From Escherichia phage vB_EcoM_phAPEC6, in sequence record MK817115.1: a stretch of DNA of 64,000 nucleotides. One strand, written 5' to 3'. The position numbers and the translations under genes were made by a program. Shown piece after piece: positions 43,193-53,606 of this stretch (the stretch's first letter is position 1; the number at the start of each line of letters is the position of its first letter). The notes below the pieces were generated by a model. That model did not search any database, was not told the DNA's origin, and saw only the letters and a program-made list of their open reading frames with translations.

Positions 43193-43538
43193 AATTTACC
43201 TCATATGTATTGTAACACCACGGTTTAACAATATCGATTTGTATATCATTTGCTTCATGAAAATGTTTAAGTACCTTCTGGTATTCCATTATTTCGTACA
43301 CATCTTCAGTACTTATAGTGCTCTCCTGAAATAATTCCTCTTCTGATAAAGTACTATAATCAGGGATTTTTATTTCTGAATATATATCATTTATCTTTCC
43401 ATTATATTGATAAATCTGGATATAAAATTGATTGTATTCTGGAATATAGGTTACATAATGGTTGTGGTTGATTACATATCTTGAAACAAAGTATTCAGTA
43501 CCATCAGTCATGTACTGAATTGTTGTCGTATTTTGCAT
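43176..43538 (-). CDS. EE-FQ family paralogue
   Basis: EEELFQESTIS. Confidence 0.55.
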   Translation of the reverse strand: MQNTTTIQYMTDGTEYFVSRYVINHNHYVTYIPEYNQFYIQIYQYNGKINDIYSEIKIPDYSTLSEEELFQESTISTEDVYEIMEYQKVLKHFHEANDIQIDIVKPWCYNTYEVNYVRND

Positions 43539-43998
43539 TCAAATAATCCACGCATTTATAGTATACTGCTAAATCTAAAAAGAATCGTTGTTTGTATTTG
43601 TAATGATGAAGTAGTGCACCATAAAATAACATAGCATTAAGTACTTTTGTATCATTAATCAATGATTTCTGAAAGTACATTTCCTCTGACATGAATACTA
43701 AATCATTATATGGAACTTGTACTGCTTCTCTAAATGTATCAATATTAATCTTCAAATCAGACCCAGGGCAATATGAAATGTATTCTGCTTTGTAATGAAA
43801 GTCATTATTATCAAAGTACTCCGCGTAGATTTGATTACCTCTACCATTAGTAAATGCTAGTCTTCCTTTAGATGAACTGAACTCATCGTATTGAAACATA
43901 CCACCAAAAGGTTTAGGACTTCTGAACTCCTTTGCAATGCGATAGATATTTTCTGCAAATTCTAAAACACCATCGTAATCATATTCTGTAGTAATCAT
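43504..43998 (-). CDS. EE-FQ family paralogue
   Basis: EEMYFQKSLIND. Confidence 0.55.
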   Translation of the reverse strand: MITTEYDYDGVLEFAENIYRIAKEFRSPKPFGGMFQYDEFSSSKGRLAFTNGRGNQIYAEYFDNNDFHYKAEYISYCPGSDLKINIDTFREAVQVPYNDLVFMSEEMYFQKSLINDTKVLNAMLFYGALLHHYKYKQRFFLDLAVYYKCVDYLNAKYDNNSVHD

Positions 43999-44471
43999 AA
44001 ACCATTTTTCTCCAGGTACTCAATAATACAATCGACATTGTTCAGGTCCAAGTAGAAATGATCACTATCGGAATTTAGTTCATTTTTAAGGGCTGTTAAA
44101 ATCACTGAACTGAAAACAATCCTCTCTGGATACACAGTACTGTACTGGAAGAACTCTTCTTCAGTGTTAATTACAATCGTATCAAATGCTTCATTTATAA
44201 GAAGATGATTGTAGTATTTGAAATTATCTGAACTTGGGAAATGGTATGAAATAAAATCACCACTTGGTACTTCATCAAGCACTCTAATACTACAAGTTGA
44301 TTCATCTGAGCTATAGAGTAACCCATCCATAAAGGAAAGATATCCATTTCGTTTAATAACTTTATTTTTATCAATTAAAAAATCTTCAGTAACATTCGCA
44401 AGGAATTTATAAACCCTGATAATGTCTTTTGCTATTTTTTGTGCATTGCTAAATGATAGGTCTTTGGACAT
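43995..44471 (-). CDS. EE-FQ family paralogue
   Basis: EEEFFQYSTVYP. Confidence 0.55.
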   Translation of the reverse strand: MSKDLSFSNAQKIAKDIIRVYKFLANVTEDFLIDKNKVIKRNGYLSFMDGLLYSSDESTCSIRVLDEVPSGDFISYHFPSSDNFKYYNHLLINEAFDTIVINTEEEFFQYSTVYPERIVFSSVILTALKNELNSDSDHFYLDLNNVDCIIEYLEKNGL

Positions 44472-44530
44472 TGTGTTATAACCCTTTACAATTAATATAA
44501 AGGGATTATATCACAAAAAATCGGTGGGTG

Positions 44531-45115
44531 TCAAGAGTGGTTGCGAAGTTCTACCATTTCTTCCCAAACTAATTGGTAATCTTCTAAGTCCAGATAGAAG
44601 TCTTCATTCCAGTGCTCATGAAAGTACTTATACATGAATAGAACTCCTAAATCGTATGCAGGAAACAATAATGATAGTTGAAAGTAGTATTCCTGATTTA
44701 AAACTATATCAATAAACTCTAATGTACGTATGCCACCTTTCGATGAACGTATCTCAATGTGTGAGGTATCCTTCATACTGTAACACATGAAACCACCTCT
44801 AAATTCTGGATCATATTCACATTCGAACTGCTCACTGTTGTTATAGAAATCTCTCCCACTTTCTTGATCTTTCGGTCTACGTACTGATACATGAATATTT
44901 TTATCACGGTACATTGAACGATTTAGTATTTTCAAACATTTGAACTTATCTTCTTTAATGAACTTGATAATATCAATTATATCTTGTGCTGTACTGATAG
45001 CTGATTCGAATGTATCCAACTTAAGATGATTATATTGGGTTCCAGAGTTCATTTTTTTATCTAACATATAAACCTCATAATTCATACATTTTTGATTTGA
45101 ACTGCATATGACCAC
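44531..45115 (-). CDS. EE-FQ family paralogue
   Basis: QEYYFQLSLLF. Confidence 0.55.
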   Translation of the reverse strand: MVICSSNQKCMNYEVYMLDKKMNSGTQYNHLKLDTFESAISTAQDIIDIIKFIKEDKFKCLKILNRSMYRDKNIHVSVRRPKDQESGRDFYNNSEQFECEYDPEFRGGFMCYSMKDTSHIEIRSSKGGIRTLEFIDIVLNQEYYFQLSLLFPAYDLGVLFMYKYFHEHWNEDFYLDLEDYQLVWEEMVELRNHS

Positions 45116-45416
45116 CTATTTCACATGGATAACAATTCATAATTTTGTTCAATAGAATCTGGTATTTTTTAATAACTTCTATATCAATTTTTATATTACT
45201 ATTAAAAACTAATGATTCTTGAAATAATTCCCCCTCGTCAAGTGAAGTAAAATCATTTATCTTCAAGGGTATATTGTTGCATCGCAAGGAGAATGTATTT
45301 TCATCACGAATTAAAGTATAGAAATCATTATGTTTTTTATTATAATCAAATTTAACAAGTAGTAGTTTAATATGAGTAGCGTACATTACTTTAACTAATT
45401 CAGATTCACGTCGCAT
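45075..45416 (-). CDS. EE-FQ family paralogue
   Basis: EGELFQESLVFN. Confidence 0.55.
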   Translation of the reverse strand: MRRESELVKVMYATHIKLLLVKFDYNKKHNDFYTLIRDENTFSLRCNNIPLKINDFTSLDEGELFQESLVFNSNIKIDIEVIKKYQILLNKIMNCYPCEIGGHMQFKSKMYEL

Positions 45417-45838
45417 ACAATACCTCTCTTATGATGCAAACATTCTTGCATAATGTGTTGTATTTTTCGTAACAGAAACACATCCAGTTCATTAAAAACA
45501 GTACTGTACTGGAACATCTCTTCTTCCCCGTACTCAGTTAAATCATCAATTTCATCTCTAGAAACAGCTACAATATTAAAACCACGTGTACTACAATAAC
45601 CCTTAGTAAGATAATATATGTACTTGTACTCTCCGTTGATATCTAAGAGATCTTGTGTGATACAGAAGCTTTTGGGTGACAGTTTATCATCAGGAACCAT
45701 ATGCCTTGCTTGTACATAGCAACGGATACCATCACCTATACTATATGTAATAACTTCAAATTCAATCTTCATAGGTGAATATAATCCTTTTATATTGCTC
45801 AGGTGCAGTACTGAAACGTTTGATTGGATAATTATCAA
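45395..45838 (-). CDS. EE-FQ family paralogue
   Basis: EEEMFQYSTVFN. Confidence 0.55.
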   Translation of the reverse strand: MIIIQSNVSVLHLSNIKGLYSPMKIEFEVITYSIGDGIRCYVQARHMVPDDKLSPKSFCITQDLLDINGEYKYIYYLTKGYCSTRGFNIVAVSRDEIDDLTEYGEEEMFQYSTVFNELDVFLLRKIQHIMQECLHHKRGIVCDVNLN

Positions 45839-46124
45839 AGATTCTTTTCATTTCTTTCTGGATTAAACATAAGAAATCAAAGTTACAATCGTACTTATTA
45901 TCCCATACTAAACTTTCTTGGAATAACTCATCCTCTTGCATTAGTGTAGTGTCAATTACATCTTCACGGACATAGCTATATACTTCATAGCTCTTGAAGC
46001 CATCTTCTGATAATTCTAATTCATATGCAGCCATATCAAACATATCATCATGGTTTGTCTTCAAAGATATTAAACAAGTAACTAATTTTTTAGTTGTATA
46101 GTATGTAATACTTAATGTGTTCAT
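45762..46124 (-). CDS. EE-FQ family paralogue
   Basis: EDELFQESLVWD. Confidence 0.55.
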   Translation of the reverse strand: MNTLSITYYTTKKLVTCLISLKTNHDDMFDMAAYELELSEDGFKSYEVYSYVREDVIDTTLMQEDELFQESLVWDNKYDCNFDFLCLIQKEMKRIFDNYPIKRFSTAPEQYKRIIFTYED

Positions 46125-46129
46125 TTGTT

Positions 46130-46732
46130 TTATACCTCAGTATATAGCTTACAATAGCTTTCATCGAAATTACAAACACTTCTCAAGTACTGACACAGGT
46201 CATTGAAAATATTTACATTTGATATATATACATTATCAAATTCTGTTCGTTGAAAGAATGTATACATAGAATTTGTAATATATCGCATTGCATCTTCACG
46301 TCCCATAGTTATATCATTTGTGAACATTGCATCTTCATCAGTACTGATGTGTTCTATTTTAAATGATTTCATAAATGGAATACTCTTTCCTAGGGCATAA
46401 CCATCACCATATGATGCTTCTACTGCACCTTTGGAATAAAGGAATTGATATAAGTCCGAATCACGATTATAAAAAGTACGACATACGGAGGAACATAATT
46501 TATTATCTATATGAAATAAAAATCTTTTAGCATTTTTGTCTAATACTATTCGCAATGCATCACTCTCTAGAAATATATCACCATCAAGCATAAATGAGAA
46601 CTGTACTAATGCTTTTTCTAAATCCGCTCGTTTGTGATAAATCATTTCCTGCATATATATAATATCATTTGCTAATTTCTTAAAAAACAAATGCACATCT
46701 GCACTACAACATTTATTTGCATTTATTGACAT
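46130..46732 (-). CDS. hypothetical protein, divergent EE-FQ-like
   Basis: DEDAMFTNDITMG. Confidence 0.45.
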   Translation of the reverse strand: MSINANKCCSADVHLFFKKLANDIIYMQEMIYHKRADLEKALVQFSFMLDGDIFLESDALRIVLDKNAKRFLFHIDNKLCSSVCRTFYNRDSDLYQFLYSKGAVEASYGDGYALGKSIPFMKSFKIEHISTDEDAMFTNDITMGREDAMRYITNSMYTFFQRTEFDNVYISNVNIFNDLCQYLRSVCNFDESYCKLYTEV

Positions 46733-47283
46733 AATAGTTCCTTATACATATGATGTACTTTACAAATCTCATTATAGTATTTCATATCAATGTCATTTGT
46801 ATTAAAAACGGAAACAGACAATACTGCTAACTTATCAATTAAGTAATTATTATCGGCGTACTGTTTTAACTTATTGAACATATAGATGCATTTTATACTT
46901 AATTCATCATGCAACACACTGTTCTGAAAAATATTCTCTTCAGTATTAGGAGATAAGTAATCTTCAATTATATACGATAAACTACTATCGCAATCTTTAT
47001 AGATTGAAATTGATGGATGTAATGTGTCATACATTACACTAAACAGATCACCGTCATATGTGGATATTAAACTATTATTGGAAACAGTAGGATGATAATA
47101 TTTCAGTACTGAAAACTTTGAACAATCAGTGCAGTAAAAATGATCCATCCCTCGACGACTTTCGTATGAGAATAGTTTACTTGTATATTCAATCCCTTTG
47201 GTGCGACGGATTGTTTCATGCATTTCTGCACATTGCATTAAAATTACCATACGTTCAAACGCAAGATCTAAATCATCGTACAT
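46723..47283 (-). CDS. EE-FQ family paralogue
   Basis: EENIFQNSVLHD. Confidence 0.55.
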   Translation of the reverse strand: MYDDLDLAFERMVILMQCAEMHETIRRTKGIEYTSKLFSYESRRGMDHFYCTDCSKFSVLKYYHPTVSNNSLISTYDGDLFSVMYDTLHPSISIYKDCDSSLSYIIEDYLSPNTEENIFQNSVLHDELSIKCIYMFNKLKQYADNNYLIDKLAVLSVSVFNTNDIDMKYYNEICKVHHMYKELLCQ

Positions 47284-47464
47284 AACGGATATCCTTCTTC
47301 AACGAATTAATATATTCCAAAATAACTTGTTCCTGATATTGGGTTCCCAAGTACATCAGTACTTTCAACTCTTTGAATTCAGTACTATATGAGTCTGTTT
47401 GCATCATTCTAGTAGAATATATATTGAATAGTTTAGCAATATCATCTTGGTCTATTATTTTCAT
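47273..47464 (-). CDS. LGT-QE family small protein (dispersed copy)
   Basis: LMYLGTQYQEQVILEYINSL. Confidence 0.5.
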   Translation of the reverse strand: MKIIDQDDIAKLFNIYSTRMMQTDSYSTEFKELKVLMYLGTQYQEQVILEYINSLKKDIRYVR

Positions 47465-47660
47465 TAACCCTCTTCTGTATTAGTTCCTGTAAGTGCTGAA
47501 TATAACCCTTCATTGCAACATCCTGTTTGTTAGAGCCAACGAAGAACAAGAGCTTAAAGTCATGGTAATCCATTTTTGGTTTAGTAGTGAACCATATGTC
47601 CCACACTGCACTCACAGTTCTCATGTATTCAATTCGATTAAATGTTTTTGAATACTTCAT
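47442..47660 (-). CDS. LGT-QE family small protein (divergent)
   Basis: LFFVGSNKQDVAMKGYIQHL. Confidence 0.45.
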   Translation of the reverse strand: MKYSKTFNRIEYMRTVSAVWDIWFTTKPKMDYHDFKLLFFVGSNKQDVAMKGYIQHLQELIQKRVNENNRPR

Positions 47661-48174
47661 CGATGTTCATTGCCAATAAGTTAATATACAAATTACTGTT
47701 AAATGCTATCTGCAATTCCATATAGAACTGAATGATTGCATAGTCAGGGTCAGTACACGATAGTTGAAAACACTGTTCGTCGAATGCATTGTAATTGTAC
47801 TTAGGGATGTGAATTTCACGCTTCAAATCAGGTTGCCCCCACTTCATCGCGTACACACCAATGTTATTGTTCTTTTTCCTTTTCTTAAATGTTAATTGTT
47901 GAATATTTCCTGCGTTATCCAGGAAAATAGAATTATTCGACACAGGTGCACCAATAGAAAACAATGATGTATCAATTACGTGTTTCTCACGTACATCACA
48001 CTTCTGAAATGCACCTGTACCCTGTAATACACGATGAAAATTGTACTTCTCATTAACAACAGTACTAGGATCAATTAAACCAGTACTGCATTTTTTGAGT
48101 ACTGGTACGATGATACGAATCTTTTTTGATAAATCTTGTAATGCATCAAAGTCATTGATGTTAACTTTCATCAC
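47638..48174 (-). CDS. EE-FQ family paralogue
   Basis: DEQCFQLSCTD. Confidence 0.5.
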   Translation of the reverse strand: MMKVNINDFDALQDLSKKIRIIVPVLKKCSTGLIDPSTVVNEKYNFHRVLQGTGAFQKCDVREKHVIDTSLFSIGAPVSNNSIFLDNAGNIQQLTFKKRKKNNNIGVYAMKWGQPDLKREIHIPKYNYNAFDEQCFQLSCTDPDYAIIQFYMELQIAFNSNLYINLLAMNIDEVFKNI

Positions 48175-51065: not shown

Positions 51066-51557
51066 TTAACCCCTGTTAATACCGTTATCTACAGTTTTCT
51101 TTACGTATTTGTAATCGAAATAGAAGTTCCCAGAACCAATACTTTTAAAGTACCACATAATTATAATAACATCAAGTACTTCATTATCGTATACAGTACT
51201 TTGTTGGAAGTAATACTCTTCACTATCCCACGGACCTTCCAGTACTTCACTCGGAATTATAATGTCATCGGAATCGCTATCAGTACTGTAGATGGTATCT
51301 GTATCATTAATATAGACCATGTACTCATTATGCATATTAATGAAGCATTCATAATCATTAGGGTCGGTATCCAGTACACACGTTTCTGTATCCAGTACGC
51401 ACGTTTCTGTATCTGAGCAGTCATTATAAAGGAGGTTATCCGGTACATAATATTGAGTACTTGTGTCTTTGAAAACACCGTAAACTGAACCTTCTTTTGC
51501 CATATTCATGTACTCATGAATCTTCTTTGCTTTTTCCAATGAACTCTGTAATGTCAT
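51066..51557 (-). CDS. EE-FQ family paralogue (recent tandem duplicate 5 of 5)
   Basis: MTLQSSLEKAKKIH ... EEYYFQQSTVYD; carries internal 7-aa duplication DTETCVL. Confidence 0.6.
   Translation of the reverse strand: MTLQSSLEKAKKIHEYMNMAKEGSVYGVFKDTSTQYYVPDNLLYNDCSDTETCVLDTETCVLDTDPNDYECFINMHNEYMVYINDTDTIYSTDSDSDDIIIPSEVLEGPWDSEEYYFQQSTVYDNEVLDVIIIMWYFKSIGSGNFYFDYKYVKKTVDNGINRG
51370..51411. repeat. 21-bp tandem direct repeat (2 units, 1 mismatch), in-frame within 51066..51557
   Basis: tccagtacacacgtttctgta / tccagtacgcacgtttctgta. Confidence 0.8.
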
Positions 51558-51566
51558 TTTATAATC

Positions 51567-51926
51567 TCATATATTGAAATAATAATTATTCGTTCTTGAT
51601 GGGGATGGATTAAATACGTTTTCTTTTTCAAATCTCTTCATTTCATTTTGCAAAGAAACCATTTCTTCAAATGTACAGGAGTACTTATTCTTATCAAACA
51701 CTAATGCAGCCTGAAATAGTTCACCATCGTCCAGTACTGTATAATCTATAAGACTCTCAGATTCATAGTCATAGTCGTCATGTGATACATGAATAAATTT
51801 AAAACAAGAATCTTTGTAATGCATATATAAACTCAACTCATGTTCCGAGTCGCCCTTAATAAGATTACAGCACAAGTCCCATCCTTTAGGTAACTTATAA
51901 TAGTACATAGAATAATCATATGTCAT
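51567..51926 (-). CDS. EE-FQ family paralogue (short subfamily)
   Basis: DDGELFQAALVFDKNKYSCTFEEM. Confidence 0.55.
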   Translation of the reverse strand: MTYDYSMYYYKLPKGWDLCCNLIKGDSEHELSLYMHYKDSCFKFIHVSHDDYDYESESLIDYTVLDDGELFQAALVFDKNKYSCTFEEMVSLQNEMKRFEKENVFNPSPSRTNNYYFNI

Positions 51927-52279
51927 TCTTGAATTCCTAAATTGAATTTGTATTCTTGATTAATACTTGCATTGGGTTTATGCAAAGCAGCATACTCTTT
52001 CATTTCATTTTGTATTGCAATAACTTCTTCAAATGTACACAAGTACTTCTTATCAAATACTAATGATTCTTGGAATAGTTCTGCGGTATCCATTAATGTA
52101 TAGTCCGGCATATCTTGGTGTGGATACTGTAATGAACTGTAATCAATGAATGTAAATTTACCCTGAGTGTAATGAATATACTCATTTGCACTGTGCATTA
52201 AATCACCTTTGTTTAAATTACAAAAGTACTGATAACTGTGCTTGAAAGTATGTACTGATATTAAAAAATCAAATTCCAT
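51923..52279 (-). CDS. EE-FQ family paralogue (short subfamily)
   Basis: DTAELFQESLVFDKKYLCTFEEV. Confidence 0.55.
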   Translation of the reverse strand: MEFDFLISVHTFKHSYQYFCNLNKGDLMHSANEYIHYTQGKFTFIDYSSLQYPHQDMPDYTLMDTAELFQESLVFDKKYLCTFEEVIAIQNEMKEYAALHKPNASINQEYKFNLGIQE

Positions 52280-52291
52280 CAGTACTCAACC
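52210..52291. repeat. 82-bp direct repeat, copy A (5' end of gene 51923..52279)
   Basis: Near-identical to 52729..52810 (2 mismatches by eye). Confidence 0.75.
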
Positions 52292-52650
52292 TCTACATAA
52301 ATAGATTCAGGAAACTTAGTCATATAATCTTCTGGATAGTTCTGCATTACTTTGATCATTTCTGCCTGTGTAGCACGGACGTATTCAATTGGTGCTCCTG
52401 GTAAATTCCAGACAGTACTTTCCTGAAAGAATTCCTCTTCTGACAGTACTGTCAGATTTACAAAATCATTACGGTAATTTTTTGAATCATCATATGTGAA
52501 GATTTTAAAAGACCCATTTTCATATAGTACAAGAACAAAATGGGAGAATTTTTGTAATGCACCACCAAGGCTTTCCACGACCGCATGATTCAGTGTACAG
52601 ATGACCTCTTTTTTCCTCATACCGAATTGAATTCTAATTTCTTTTTTCAT
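52279..52650 (-). CDS. EE-FQ family paralogue (short subfamily)
   Basis: SEEEFFQESTVWN. Confidence 0.55.
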   Translation of the reverse strand: MKKEIRIQFGMRKKEVICTLNHAVVESLGGALQKFSHFVLVLYENGSFKIFTYDDSKNYRNDFVNLTVLSEEEFFQESTVWNLPGAPIEYVRATQAEMIKVMQNYPEDYMTKFPESIYVEVEY

Positions 52651-52651
52651 A

Positions 52652-52808
52652 AAATCTCCTTCAGATTAGTACTGAATTTGTACAGAATATTAGAACTGTA
52701 TACAGCCTCTGTATCTGTATCCATAATCAAATCACCTTTGTTTAAATTACAAAAGTACTGATAACTGTGCTTAAAAGAATGTACTGATATTAAAAAATCA
52801 AATTCCAT
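52652..52808 (-). pseudogene. remnant ORF (52 aa): duplicated N-terminus of an EE-FQ short-subfamily gene
   Basis: Own translation MEFDFLISVHSFKHSYQYFCNLNKGDLIMDTDTEAVYSSNILYKFSTNLKEIL; first 27 aa almost identical to N-terminus of 51923..52279; overlaps neighbours at both ends. Confidence 0.5.
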
Positions 52809-52810
52809 CA
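52729..52810. repeat. 82-bp direct repeat, copy B
   Basis: aaatcacctttgtttaaattacaaaagtactgataactgtgctt...tcaaattccatca. Confidence 0.75.
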
Positions 52811-53185
52811 CTCTTCCCCTAGATTGAAATGATTACAAAAATCATCTTCACCAGTACTGCACCAGATATCTATACATTCCCTGTGAATACATTTAATTCT
52901 ACGCTGTAATTCAATCATCTCTTCTAATGTACAGATGTACTTCTTATCAAATACTAATGCCGCCTGAAACAGTGCAGCATCATCAAGTACTGTATAGTCC
53001 AACATCTCGGTTGCTTTACCCCTAAACCCAGTACTAAAATCCATCAAATAAAAGTCAGCATTCCAGTACTTTAAAATCTTGTCCCTAGCGTAGTTTAAAT
53101 CACCCTTGTATAAGTTAGAGTGCGTAACTAACTCACCAGTGTACATCCATGTCCTTGCACAAAATTCATTATATTTTATTTCCAT
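52808..53185 (-). CDS. EE-FQ family paralogue (short subfamily)
   Basis: DDAALFQAALVFDKKYICTLEEM; start set at MEIKYNEF (track start 53293 over-extended). Confidence 0.5.
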   Translation of the reverse strand: MEIKYNEFCARTWMYTGELVTHSNLYKGDLNYARDKILKYWNADFYLMDFSTGFRGKATEMLDYTVLDDAALFQAALVFDKKYICTLEEMIELQRRIKCIHRECIDIWCSTGEDDFCNHFNLGEE

Positions 53186-53381
53186 CTTAATCTCTACTAT
53201 AATTAATAAGGTAAACTCCAATATAAGGAGCACGTTGCGGGGGCGGGGTATTTTTTGTTTCAGGAAACATGAACTGTACTCTGAAAAACACAATATAAAA
53301 CTTTATATTAAACATATACCTTAGCATGTTTTTCAGCGGAAATTTTTTTGACCCCCTGCGGCCTGTCAAAACGAAACGTCT

Positions 53382-53606
53382 CTATTTATTCAGCCTAGAA
53401 ACCTTGATTTCTTCAATCCTTTTCATTGCACAAAGCCTTCGACTCGTCCTCTCGTATATATTCAATACTCGCTGTAATGCATTATCTGTATTATCTGCAA
53501 CTGCAATCTGAACCAAATATGTATCCTTCAAAATAGAATCCATCATGAATTCAAAACCTTTCACACTAAAGCAATATGCCACTTCCGGCTCTTCAAACGT
53601 AATCAT
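53382..53606 (-). CDS. hypothetical protein
   Basis: ORF track. Confidence 0.4.
   Translation of the reverse strand: MITFEEPEVAYCFSVKGFEFMMDSILKDTYLVQIAVADNTDNALQRVLNIYERTSRRLCAMKRIEEIKVSRLNK

What the first reader, a model, noticed from the sequence alone, without database searches (positions are those of the whole stretch)
52210..52810. 82-bp direct repeat marks a duplicated gene N-terminus and a 52-aa remnant ORF
The first 82 bp of gene 51923..52279 recur at 52729..52810 with 2 mismatches, about 520 bp away. The second copy starts a 52-aa ORF (52652..52808) whose first 27 residues are almost identical to the parental N-terminus and which then diverges and stops early. It is wedged between two full-length paralogues with ATGA-type overlaps at both ends. 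It is either a decaying duplicate or a small translationally coupled ORF.
Basis: seen in the sequence. Interest (0 to 1): 0.55.

Follow-up and report, generated by a model that had tools for sequence, protein, structure and literature searches.

The report
Chimeric junction ORF from ectopic gene insertion
The 85-base repeat and the small ORF are the scars of one event in which a jumbo E. coli phage copied a gene, plus the tail end of that gene's upstream neighbour, from another spot in a 41-gene family array into the start of a paralogue; this is ordinary phage mosaic evolution, seen here at base-pair resolution.

Summary
The repeat is real: 52197-52281 and 52726-52810, 85 nt, 3 mismatches, none expected by chance. 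The window is an Asteriusvirus (121Q/PBECO4/G17-like jumbo coliphage), and all genes here lie on the minus strand. The small ORF is 53 aa (52647..52808). It is not a decayed copy of its neighbour. It is a chimera: codons 1-27 of gene C (51923..52279) fused in frame to the last 25 codons of a different ~192-aa gene. Phage A4 and one metagenomic contig keep that gene intact, directly upstream of their copy of gene B, at a "home" locus about 6 kb away. A patch made of that gene's 3' end plus all of B (52279..52650) was inserted between A and C. The junctions are short microhomologies (GATTTRAT, TGATGGA), and because they are staggered the first ~80 nt of C were duplicated. Phage 121Q keeps a longer 74-aa form; the window lineage lost 63 nt in frame between 15-nt repeats. 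Ten sequenced phages carry the cassette and about 20 have A abutting C with one repeat copy. In Turkey3 a 562-nt tract is 100% identical to the window inside 86-90% identical flanks, so the cassette also spreads by homologous recombination. The family's function is unknown. Interest is modest.

The parts
52726..52810 (-). Repeat copy 2. It holds the last 2 nt of A's stop context (TGATG), the start codon, and codons 1-27 of the chimeric ORF. It keeps the A-3'end/Shine-Dalgarno context that gene C has in genomes without the insert.
52197..52281 (-). Repeat copy 1: the TGATG overlap with B's stop plus codons 1-27 of the intact gene C.
52647..52808 (-). Chimeric 53-aa ORF (MEFDFLISVHSFKHSYQYFCNLNKGDL | IMDTDTEAVYSSNILYKFSTNLKEIL*). 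The N-terminal 27 aa come from gene C; the C-terminal 25-26 aa come from the 3' end of an A4_364-like gene.
52726..52733 (-). Left junction microhomology, GATTTGAT on the minus strand. Gene C has GATTTAAT at 52197-52204 and A4_364 has GATTTGAT.
52275..52281 (-). Right junction microhomology, TGATGGA (B stop overlapping the next gene's ATG). The same heptamer sits at the A/C boundary (52804-52810) and at the B/A4_366 boundary in A4 and L012.
52282..52725 (-). The 444-nt unique inserted segment: the 3' end of the 364-like gene (52651-52725) plus gene B. It is absent, together with one repeat copy (a 529-nt unit), from PBECO4-type genomes.
52279..52650 (-). Gene B, 123 aa, phrog_13866. It has its own AAGGAG Shine-Dalgarno 5 nt upstream, inside the chimeric ORF's last codons, and an ATGA overlap with that ORF's stop.
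52678..52692 (-). Site of a secondary 63-nt in-frame deletion relative to 121Q. One copy of the 15-nt direct repeat TAATRTTCTGTRCAA is left; 121Q has both copies and a 74-aa ORF.
52808..53185 (-). Gene A, 125 aa, phrog_15629: the upstream neighbour. It abuts gene C directly in genomes without the insert.
51923..52279 (-). Gene C, 118 aa, phrog_15629: the recipient gene whose 5' ~80 nt were duplicated.
46130..46732 (-). Home-locus counterpart of the donor's upstream gene. This 200-aa protein is collinear with A4_364 over 191 aa (24% identity, E 8e-9).
45762..46124 (-). Home-locus paralogue of B ('B2', 28% identical). It occupies the position that B occupies in phage A4.
52200..52761 (-). 562-nt tract 100% identical between the window and phage Turkey3, ending inside both repeat copies. 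The flanking genes are only 86-90% identical.

Best explanation
The repeat and the small ORF are by-products of one ectopic, microhomology-mediated insertion inside a tandem multigene family of an Asteriusvirus jumbo phage.

The donor was an A4-like genome, or an A4-like allele in the same genome. There, a ~192-aa gene ('364') is followed by gene B with an ATGA overlap, at a locus about 6 kb further along the array. A patch made of the last ~140 nt of 364 plus all of B was joined into a PBECO4-like recipient in which gene A directly abuts gene C.

The left junction joined codon 27 of C to 364 at GATTTRAT. The right junction joined B's stop to C's start at TGATGGA. Because the right junction lies ~80 nt upstream of the left one in the recipient, those ~80 nt (C's ribosome-binding context, ATG and 27 codons) ended up on both sides of the insert.

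The upstream copy is fused in frame to the 364 tail. This gave a 74-aa chimeric ORF, the form that 121Q still has. A later 63-nt in-frame deletion between 15-nt direct repeats gave the 53-aa form in this window.

Consequences, all inferred and not shown:
- The chimeric ORF is translated from C's initiation region.
- It carries ribosomes to the ATGA overlap, so B keeps its native upstream context (AAGGAG plus coupling).
- C is now coupled to B's stop.
- The two repeat copies make the unit a presence/absence cassette. It can be lost by recombination between the copies, which restores a perfect A-C junction. It is also passed between co-infecting phages by homologous recombination with crossovers in or next to the repeats.
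For: Shown:
1. In about 20 related phages A abuts C, with a single repeat copy and exactly 529 nt less.
2. In phage A4 and in Logan contig L012, B (93.5% aa) lies at another locus. It is preceded, with an ATGA overlap, by a 192/198-aa ORF ending ...FQQDLIMDVDSAATYSSNVLCKEFQNSKILELLYIADCNILYKFCTHLKEIL*. This matches the 46-aa tail of the 121Q ORF, and the 25-aa tail here once the 21 deleted residues are removed.
3. The nucleotide alignment shows both breakpoints with 7-8 nt microhomology and no homology beyond them.
4. The A4 locus is syntenic with window 48171..43531. A4_364 aligns end to end with the 200-aa gene at 46130..46732 (E 8e-9), and B's position there is held by a 28% paralogue. So 364-B is the native pair and the A|C copy is the derived one.
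5. 121Q carries the extra 63 nt, bounded by TAATGTTCTGTGCAA / TAATATTCTGTACAA.
6. Between donor-type and inserted copies the tail has 15/146 mismatches against 13/369 in B (Fisher p = 0.004). Between the two intact 364 genes the tail has 0 non-synonymous changes.
7. Turkey3 has 0 mismatches to the window over 52200-52761. Its A is 99.5% CMSTMSU-like and its C is 98.2% WPEC3-like, and both of those phages have empty sites.
8. PBECO4's single copy carries the copy-2 bases at the two internal SNPs and the copy-1 base at the junction SNP. A copy2 x copy1 deletion would produce this pattern, but so would an ancestral empty site.
9. Only the native frame of the tail stays open up to B's ATG.
Against: - The intact donor gene has only two witnesses, A4 and one 3.6-kb metagenomic contig, which are 97% identical to each other. 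Both are 10-12% diverged from the inserted tail, so neither is the actual donor.
- A broad HMM of the superfamily does not score A4_364 significantly, so its family membership rests on the pairwise match.
- A single-step origin cannot be separated from a two-step one (tandem duplication of C, then replacement of its 3' part).
- Whether empty sites are ancestral or secondary deletions cannot be decided from the three SNPs.
- Nothing here shows that the 53-aa ORF or B is translated.
- Two in-frame events have about a 1/9 chance of arising without selection.
Confidence: 0.8

Rival explanations
1. Decaying tandem duplicate. Gene C was duplicated in tandem, and the upstream copy is rotting away by point mutation and internal deletion, leaving its N-terminus and an unrecognisable rest.
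For: 26/27 N-terminal residues are identical to C. phrog_15629 matches residues 1-39. A real internal 63-nt deletion happened in this ORF. The last residues YKF..NL faintly recall C's YKFNLG.
Against: From codon 28 on, the sequence is 88-90% identical in DNA to the 3' end of a different gene that is intact in A4 and L012. It has no detectable similarity to C's codons 28-118. Identity drops from ~97% to background within a few bases at an 8-nt microhomology. That is a breakpoint, not gradual decay.
Confidence: 0.05
2. Selected leader ORF. Whatever its origin, the 53-aa ORF is kept by selection because translation through it to the ATGA overlap is needed to express gene B, or because the peptide itself acts.
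For: The fusion is in frame, and the later 63-nt deletion is also in frame. The other two frames stop before B's ATG. B's AAGGAG lies inside the ORF's last codons, with an ATGA overlap. The tail has only 0-1 differences among all filled-site genomes.
Against: Chance alone gives about 1/9 for two in-frame events. B has a strong Shine-Dalgarno of its own. The local RNA is not unusually structured (z = -0.49), so there is no evident need for unmasking by ribosomes. Relative to the donor, the tail accumulated 2-3 times more change than B, mostly non-synonymous. 121Q's N-terminal part carries 13 clustered substitutions that change 5-6 residues. The 27 aa from C cover only the first beta-hairpin of the predicted fold.
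Confidence: 0.25
3. Reverse direction. The A|C arrangement is the original one, and A4's 192-aa gene arose when tail plus B moved to the A4 locus and fused to another gene.
For: Only two closely related sequences carry the intact 364 gene. The superfamily HMM does not recognise it.
Against: A4_364 is collinear over 191 residues, tail included, with the window's gene at the same array position (E 8e-9). A B-type paralogue follows that gene in the window too. The A|C form contains a duplicated piece of its neighbour, which marks it as derived. The tail is under purifying selection between A4 and L012 (0 non-synonymous, 3 synonymous changes).
Confidence: 0.04
4. A mobile genetic element (transposon, homing cassette or classical moron) inserted here, and the repeat is its target-site duplication.
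For: The unit lies between genes that are adjacent in relatives, is flanked by a direct duplication of target sequence, and is patchily distributed.
Against: The unit has no transposase, integrase or homing-endonuclease domain, no terminal inverted repeats, and no promoter or terminator of its own. Its G+C is 0.347, against 0.30-0.36 for its neighbours. An ~80-nt duplication is far longer than transposon target duplications. The insert begins in the middle of a gene.
Confidence: 0.03

Closest known systems
Illegitimate (microhomology-mediated) recombination creating novel gene junctions in mosaic phage genomes (Hendrix/Hatfull model; template-switch or MMBIR-type events). Cited from general knowledge.
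   Same: The breakpoints fall at 7-8 nt microhomologies unrelated to gene boundaries. A donor segment is identifiable elsewhere. The staggered junctions give a duplication, a chimeric ORF lies at the junction, and the unit then spreads by homologous recombination in the flanks.
   Different: Donor and recipient are members of one tandem multigene family in the same genus. One junction uses the family's shared stop/start overlap. The product stays in frame and translationally linked.
Morons of lambdoid/HK97-like phages (Juhala et al. 2000). Cited from general knowledge.
   Same: It is an extra gene sitting between two genes that are directly adjacent in close relatives.
   Different: It has no promoter or terminator of its own and no deviant base composition. 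It is a paralogue of its neighbours rather than foreign cargo, and it brought along a fragment of its former upstream gene.
PeSL-flanked mobile ORF cassettes of T4-type phages (Arbiol, Comeau, Krisch 2010). Cited from general knowledge.
   Same: Short conserved sequences on both sides of a small ORF allow its loss and its exchange between co-infecting relatives.
   Different: Here the flanking repeats are coding sequence (27 codons plus the stop/start overlap) created by the insertion itself. They are not promoter/stem-loop regulatory modules.
Unequal crossing-over and gene conversion in tandem gene families
   Same: The setting is a paralogue array. The evidence is repeat-mediated presence/absence and homogenisation of the two repeat copies (96% identity here against 85% in 121Q).
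   Different: The founding event was not homologous. The partners share only 7-8 nt at each breakpoint.

Membership tests
Decayed tandem duplicate (pseudogene) of gene C | Residual homology to the parent gene along the whole remnant, decaying gradually | tested here: not met
   Homology to C ends abruptly after ~85 nt. The rest is 88-90% identical to the 3' end of A4_364/L012.
Decayed tandem duplicate (pseudogene) of gene C | N-terminal segment derived from the parent gene | tested here: met
   85 nt with 3 mismatches; 26/27 aa identical.
Microhomology-mediated ectopic insertion (illegitimate recombination / template switch) | A donor sequence is identifiable at another locus, in its native context | tested here: met
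   The 364-B pair is found in A4 and L012, syntenic with window 46732..45762.
Microhomology-mediated ectopic insertion (illegitimate recombination / template switch) | Short microhomology, and no extended homology, at both junctions | tested here: met
   GATTTRAT (8 nt) and TGATGGA (7 nt).
Microhomology-mediated ectopic insertion (illegitimate recombination / template switch) | An empty-site allele exists with an uninterrupted recipient sequence | tested here: met
   PBECO4, SP27, UB, WPEC3, TH47 and others have A abutting C with one repeat copy.
Microhomology-mediated ectopic insertion (illegitimate recombination / template switch) | Single event (replicative template switch) rather than two successive events | not testable with these tools
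   All filled genomes share the same two junctions. No intermediate was found.
Moron | Inserted between genes that are adjacent in related phages | tested here: met
Moron | Own promoter and terminator | tested here: not met
   There are no minus-strand promoter-like or terminator-like sites within 52282-52725.
Moron | Base composition distinct from the surroundings | tested here: not met
   G+C is 0.347, against 0.36 for A, 0.30 for C and 0.32 for the array.
Transposable element with target-site duplication | Transposase/integrase gene and terminal inverted repeats | tested here: not met
   No Pfam domain in B or in the ORF. No inverted repeats at the ends of the insert.
Homing-endonuclease cassette | Encodes an HNH/GIY-YIG/LAGLIDADG-type endonuclease | tested here: not met
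   No Pfam hit. B is a member of the local paralogue family, phrog_13866.
Translationally coupled upstream ORF | The stop codon overlaps the downstream start (ATGA) | tested here: met
   Stop at 52649..52647 and B's ATG at 52650..52648.
Translationally coupled upstream ORF | Downstream translation depends on translation of the upstream ORF | not testable with these tools
   B has its own AAGGAG, and the local RNA fold is unremarkable (z = -0.49). A reporter assay is needed.
phrog_15629 protein family (A, C, D) | Full-length match to the family profile, including the invariant FQ motif | tested here: not met
   The ORF matches profile positions 1-39 of 121 only. It lacks the F-Q that is invariant in all 40 aligned paralogues.

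The most novel reading that the evidence does not exclude
The founding insertion may not be a one-off accident. The conserved gene starts and the shared TGATGGA stop/start overlaps of this 41-member family would then act as built-in recombination joints. They would let single family genes be copied to new array positions and swapped between co-infecting jumbo phages as repeat-flanked cassettes, giving a cassette-shuffling system for a fast-evolving (possibly host-interaction) gene family. The chimeric 53-aa ORF would be retained as the translational coupler.
Probability: 0.12. Interest if true: 0.55.

Novelty: new member of a known kind. Interest (0 to 1): 0.3.

Why it matters
This is a clean, base-pair-resolved example of how gene order and new small ORFs arise in phage multigene arrays. 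The donor locus, the empty site, both microhomology junctions, a secondary deletion and later horizontal spread are all recoverable from public genomes.

It has a practical use for annotation. The 53/74-aa "hypothetical proteins" annotated in G17, slurp01, Turkey3 and 121Q are junction chimeras, not family members.

It also marks this locus as a natural presence/absence marker. That marker could be used to measure recombination between co-infecting Asteriusviruses.

It does not reveal a new kind of system.

Tried and rejected
- **Pfam on A, the ORF, B, C, D, E, F and G:** nothing above threshold. PHROGs gave only families of unknown function.
- **Search for a full-length parent of the 121Q 74-aa ORF among 5.8 bn proteins:** it returned only the ORF itself, the 53-aa form and C-type proteins matching the N-terminus. 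So no C-type gene carries this tail.
- **Superfamily HMM against A4_364:** not significant. The pairwise BLASTP to the positional homologue was significant.
- **IMG/VR scans with 20-mer junction probes:** 6 hits for the chimeric junction, of which only 121Q itself is genuine; 0 hits for the donor junction.
- **Promoter/terminator scan and RNA folding of the ORF region:** nothing beyond shuffled expectation.
- **Literature searches on Asteriusvirus, 121Q, PBECO4 and paralogous families:** no description of this family or locus.
- **TH47's longer match:** I considered that it might be a second kind of insert. It is an ordinary empty site plus a paralogue hit.

Full report
**Where this is.** The window matches Asteriusvirus jumbo coliphages. 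It is 99.6% identical to ECO103 4-12-1 and EC22.5-2, and 99.5% to vB_EcoM_G17. 121Q, PBECO4, slurp01 and about 30 other phages are also related. Every gene in this region is on the minus strand and tightly packed. I name them as follows:
- A: 52808..53185, 125 aa
- the small ORF: 52647..52808
- B: 52279..52650, 123 aa
- C: 51923..52279, 118 aa
- D: 51567..51926
- then E, F and G

PHROGs places A, C and D in phrog_15629, B in phrog_13866, and E, F and G in phrog_9317. All are of unknown function, and Pfam finds nothing.

- The two copies, 52197-52281 and 52726-52810, are 85 nt long with 3 mismatches.
- A 3-mismatch search finds only these two copies in the window, against none in 100 shuffles.
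- This is the only repeat above 85% identity in the 30-64 kb array. The other paralogue similarities are 60-85%.
- The repeat covers the TGATG stop/start overlap plus codons 1-27 of C.
- The small ORF is 53 aa, not 52, and 26 of its first 27 residues equal C's.
- Its upstream overlap is TGATG (1 nt) and its downstream overlap is ATGA (4 nt).

**The unit is a presence/absence polymorphism.** In PBECO4 gene A abuts gene C directly. Window 51500-52281 and 52726-53400 both align to PBECO4 and overlap on a single 85-nt copy. PBECO4 therefore lacks exactly one 529-nt unit: 444 unique nt plus one repeat copy. The census of the phage collection is:
- The unit is present in ten phages (11 records): BF17, EC22.5-2, ECO103 4-12-1, G17, SHEFM2K, CRJP21, Sharanji, slurp01, Turkey3 and 121Q.
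- About 20 phages have the empty site.
- Four are too divergent at this locus to classify.

**What the small ORF is made of.**
- 121Q has a 74-aa version. It carries an extra in-frame 63 nt bounded by the direct repeats TAATGTTCTGTGCAA and TAATATTCTGTACAA. The window keeps one copy at 52678-52692, so the 53-aa form is a secondary deletion.
- A search of 5.8 billion proteins with the 74-aa form found no full-length C-type parent carrying its tail.
- The parent appeared when B was traced. Phage A4 carries B (93.5% aa identity) at a different locus, preceded with an ATGA overlap by A4_364. This 192-aa ORF ends ...FQQDLIMDVDSAATYSSNVLCKEFQNSKILELLYIADCNILYKFCTHLKEIL*. That is the tail of the 121Q ORF, and the tail of the window ORF once the 21 deleted residues are removed.
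- A second, independent witness is P0005 (198 aa, 97% identical) on a Logan contig. It is again followed by B and then by the start of an A4_366-like gene.

**The breakpoints.** The nucleotide alignment shows both.
- Left junction: C reads ...AAAGGTGATTTAATGCAC, A4_364 reads ...CAACAGGATTTGATTATGGAT, and the chimera reads ...AAAGGTGATTTGATTATGGAT. The crossover lies within GATTTRAT (52726-52733).
- Right junction: A4 reads GAGTACTGATGGATTTAG and the window reads GAGTACTGATGGAATTTG. The crossover lies within TGATGGA (52275-52281), the stop/start overlap that the A/C boundary also has.

The right junction lies about 80 nt upstream of the left one in the recipient. That stretch is therefore duplicated. 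The third "mismatch" of the repeat (52728 vs 52199) sits inside the left microhomology. It is also a synonymous TTA/TTG polymorphism among C alleles.

**Direction of the event.**
- The A4 locus is syntenic with window 48171..43531. There B's place is taken by a 28% paralogue (45762..46124).
- The gene just upstream of that paralogue (46130..46732, 200 aa) aligns with A4_364 over 191 residues, tail included (E 8e-9).
- So 364-B is the native gene pair of that array position, and the A|C copy is ectopic.
- A4's own A/C region is divergent and has no insert.
- A broad superfamily HMM does not score A4_364 significantly, so the argument rests on the pairwise match and on synteny.

**Fate after insertion.**
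- Between donor-type and inserted copies the tail shows 15/146 mismatches (L012 vs 121Q), against 13/369 in B (Fisher p = 0.004).
- Between the two intact 364 genes the tail has 3 synonymous and 0 non-synonymous changes.
- In 121Q the duplicated N-terminal part carries 13 substitutions clustered in 17 nt. The two repeat copies are only 85% alike there, against 96% in the window lineage.
- Together these fit relaxed constraint on the peptide, and later homogenisation of the copies in the window lineage.
- The fusion and the 63-nt deletion are both in frame, and the other two frames stop before B's ATG. B also has its own AAGGAG, and the RNA is not unusually structured. A coupling role is therefore possible but unproven.

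**Spread.**
- Turkey3 has no difference from the window between 52200 and 52761, which is 562 nt ending inside both repeat copies. Its A gene is 85.6% identical to the window's and the rest of its C gene is 90.1% identical.
- Turkey3's A is 99.5% identical to CMSTMSU's and its C is 98.2% identical to WPEC3's. Both of those phages have empty sites.
- The 5' part of Turkey3's upstream repeat copy carries the CMSTMSU-type bases. This is what homologous recombination of the cassette into an empty-site genome would leave.
- Conversely, PBECO4 is 99.3-99.5% identical to the window in the flanks but is empty. Its single copy combines copy-2 bases at the two internal SNPs with the copy-1 base at the junction. 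That fits deletion between the copies, but it equally fits an ancestral empty site. I cannot decide between them.

**What it is not.**
- The insert has no promoter or terminator of its own.
- Its base composition is not deviant.
- It has no terminal inverted repeats.
- It has no recombinase or endonuclease domain.

It is therefore not a classical moron, a transposon or a homing cassette.

**Verdict.** The feature is a junction chimera plus target duplication from a microhomology-mediated ectopic insertion in a multigene array. The cassette has since moved by homologous recombination. This is a well-documented instance of a known evolutionary process, of modest interest.

Noticed in passing
window 33331-62006, minus strand: 41 consecutive or near-consecutive ORFs (100-207 aa) form one superfamily. 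Mean identity is 15%, but the F-Q dipeptide is invariant within an acidic motif (EEYYFQQS, EEELFQES, EEGYFQGS) that resembles TEV/3C-type protease sites. There is no Pfam hit, the predicted fold has no clear PDB relative, and the family is confined to Asteriusvirus/RaK2-like jumbo phages.
   Followed up: partly
L006 (UE-S1) 1924-2652: In phage UE-S1 genes A and C are annotated as one 242-aa ORF. The stop in the TGATG overlap is out of frame (…NLGERVMEFDF…). This is either a natural A-C fusion or a sequencing error.
   Followed up: no
window 51364-51405 (gene E): A tandem 21-nt duplication encodes CVLDTET twice. UE-S1 shows a 21-nt gap in gene E in the alignment, so this in-frame duplication may be polymorphic.
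   Followed up: no
window 51066-51557 (gene E) vs L004, L005, L007, L008: Gene E is unalignable (~44% identity) in Turkey3, WPEC3, ph0011 and CMSTMSU. There it is replaced by a 61-aa plus a ~114-aa ORF pair, while the neighbouring genes D, F and G remain alignable at 80-96% identity. This is another mosaic replacement in the same array.
   Followed up: no
L003 (121Q) 2787-2871, equivalent to window 52762-52778: The upstream repeat copy of 121Q differs from the window by 13 substitutions packed into 17 nt. This looks like a small converted or replaced patch rather than scattered point mutations. Its source was not sought.
   Followed up: no
window 52197-52281 vs single copies in L005, L007, L008: In empty-site genomes the single 85-nt segment appears better conserved relative to the window (about 94-98%, over the part the alignment could place) than gene A (80-92%) or the rest of C (87-92%). 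This may be a trace of past gain/loss cycles, or constraint on the translation-initiation region.
   Followed up: partly
protein P0008: A 103-aa partial protein 86% identical to gene C is deposited as Actinomadura adrarensis on a 563-nt contig. It is most likely coliphage contamination in that assembly.
   Followed up: no
L013 (TH47) 1434-1928: In the UNVERIFIED TH47 record the gene A ORF runs past the usual stop (…NLGKSDGI*) into the start of C. This is probably a frameshift or a sequencing error at the TGATG overlap.
   Followed up: no
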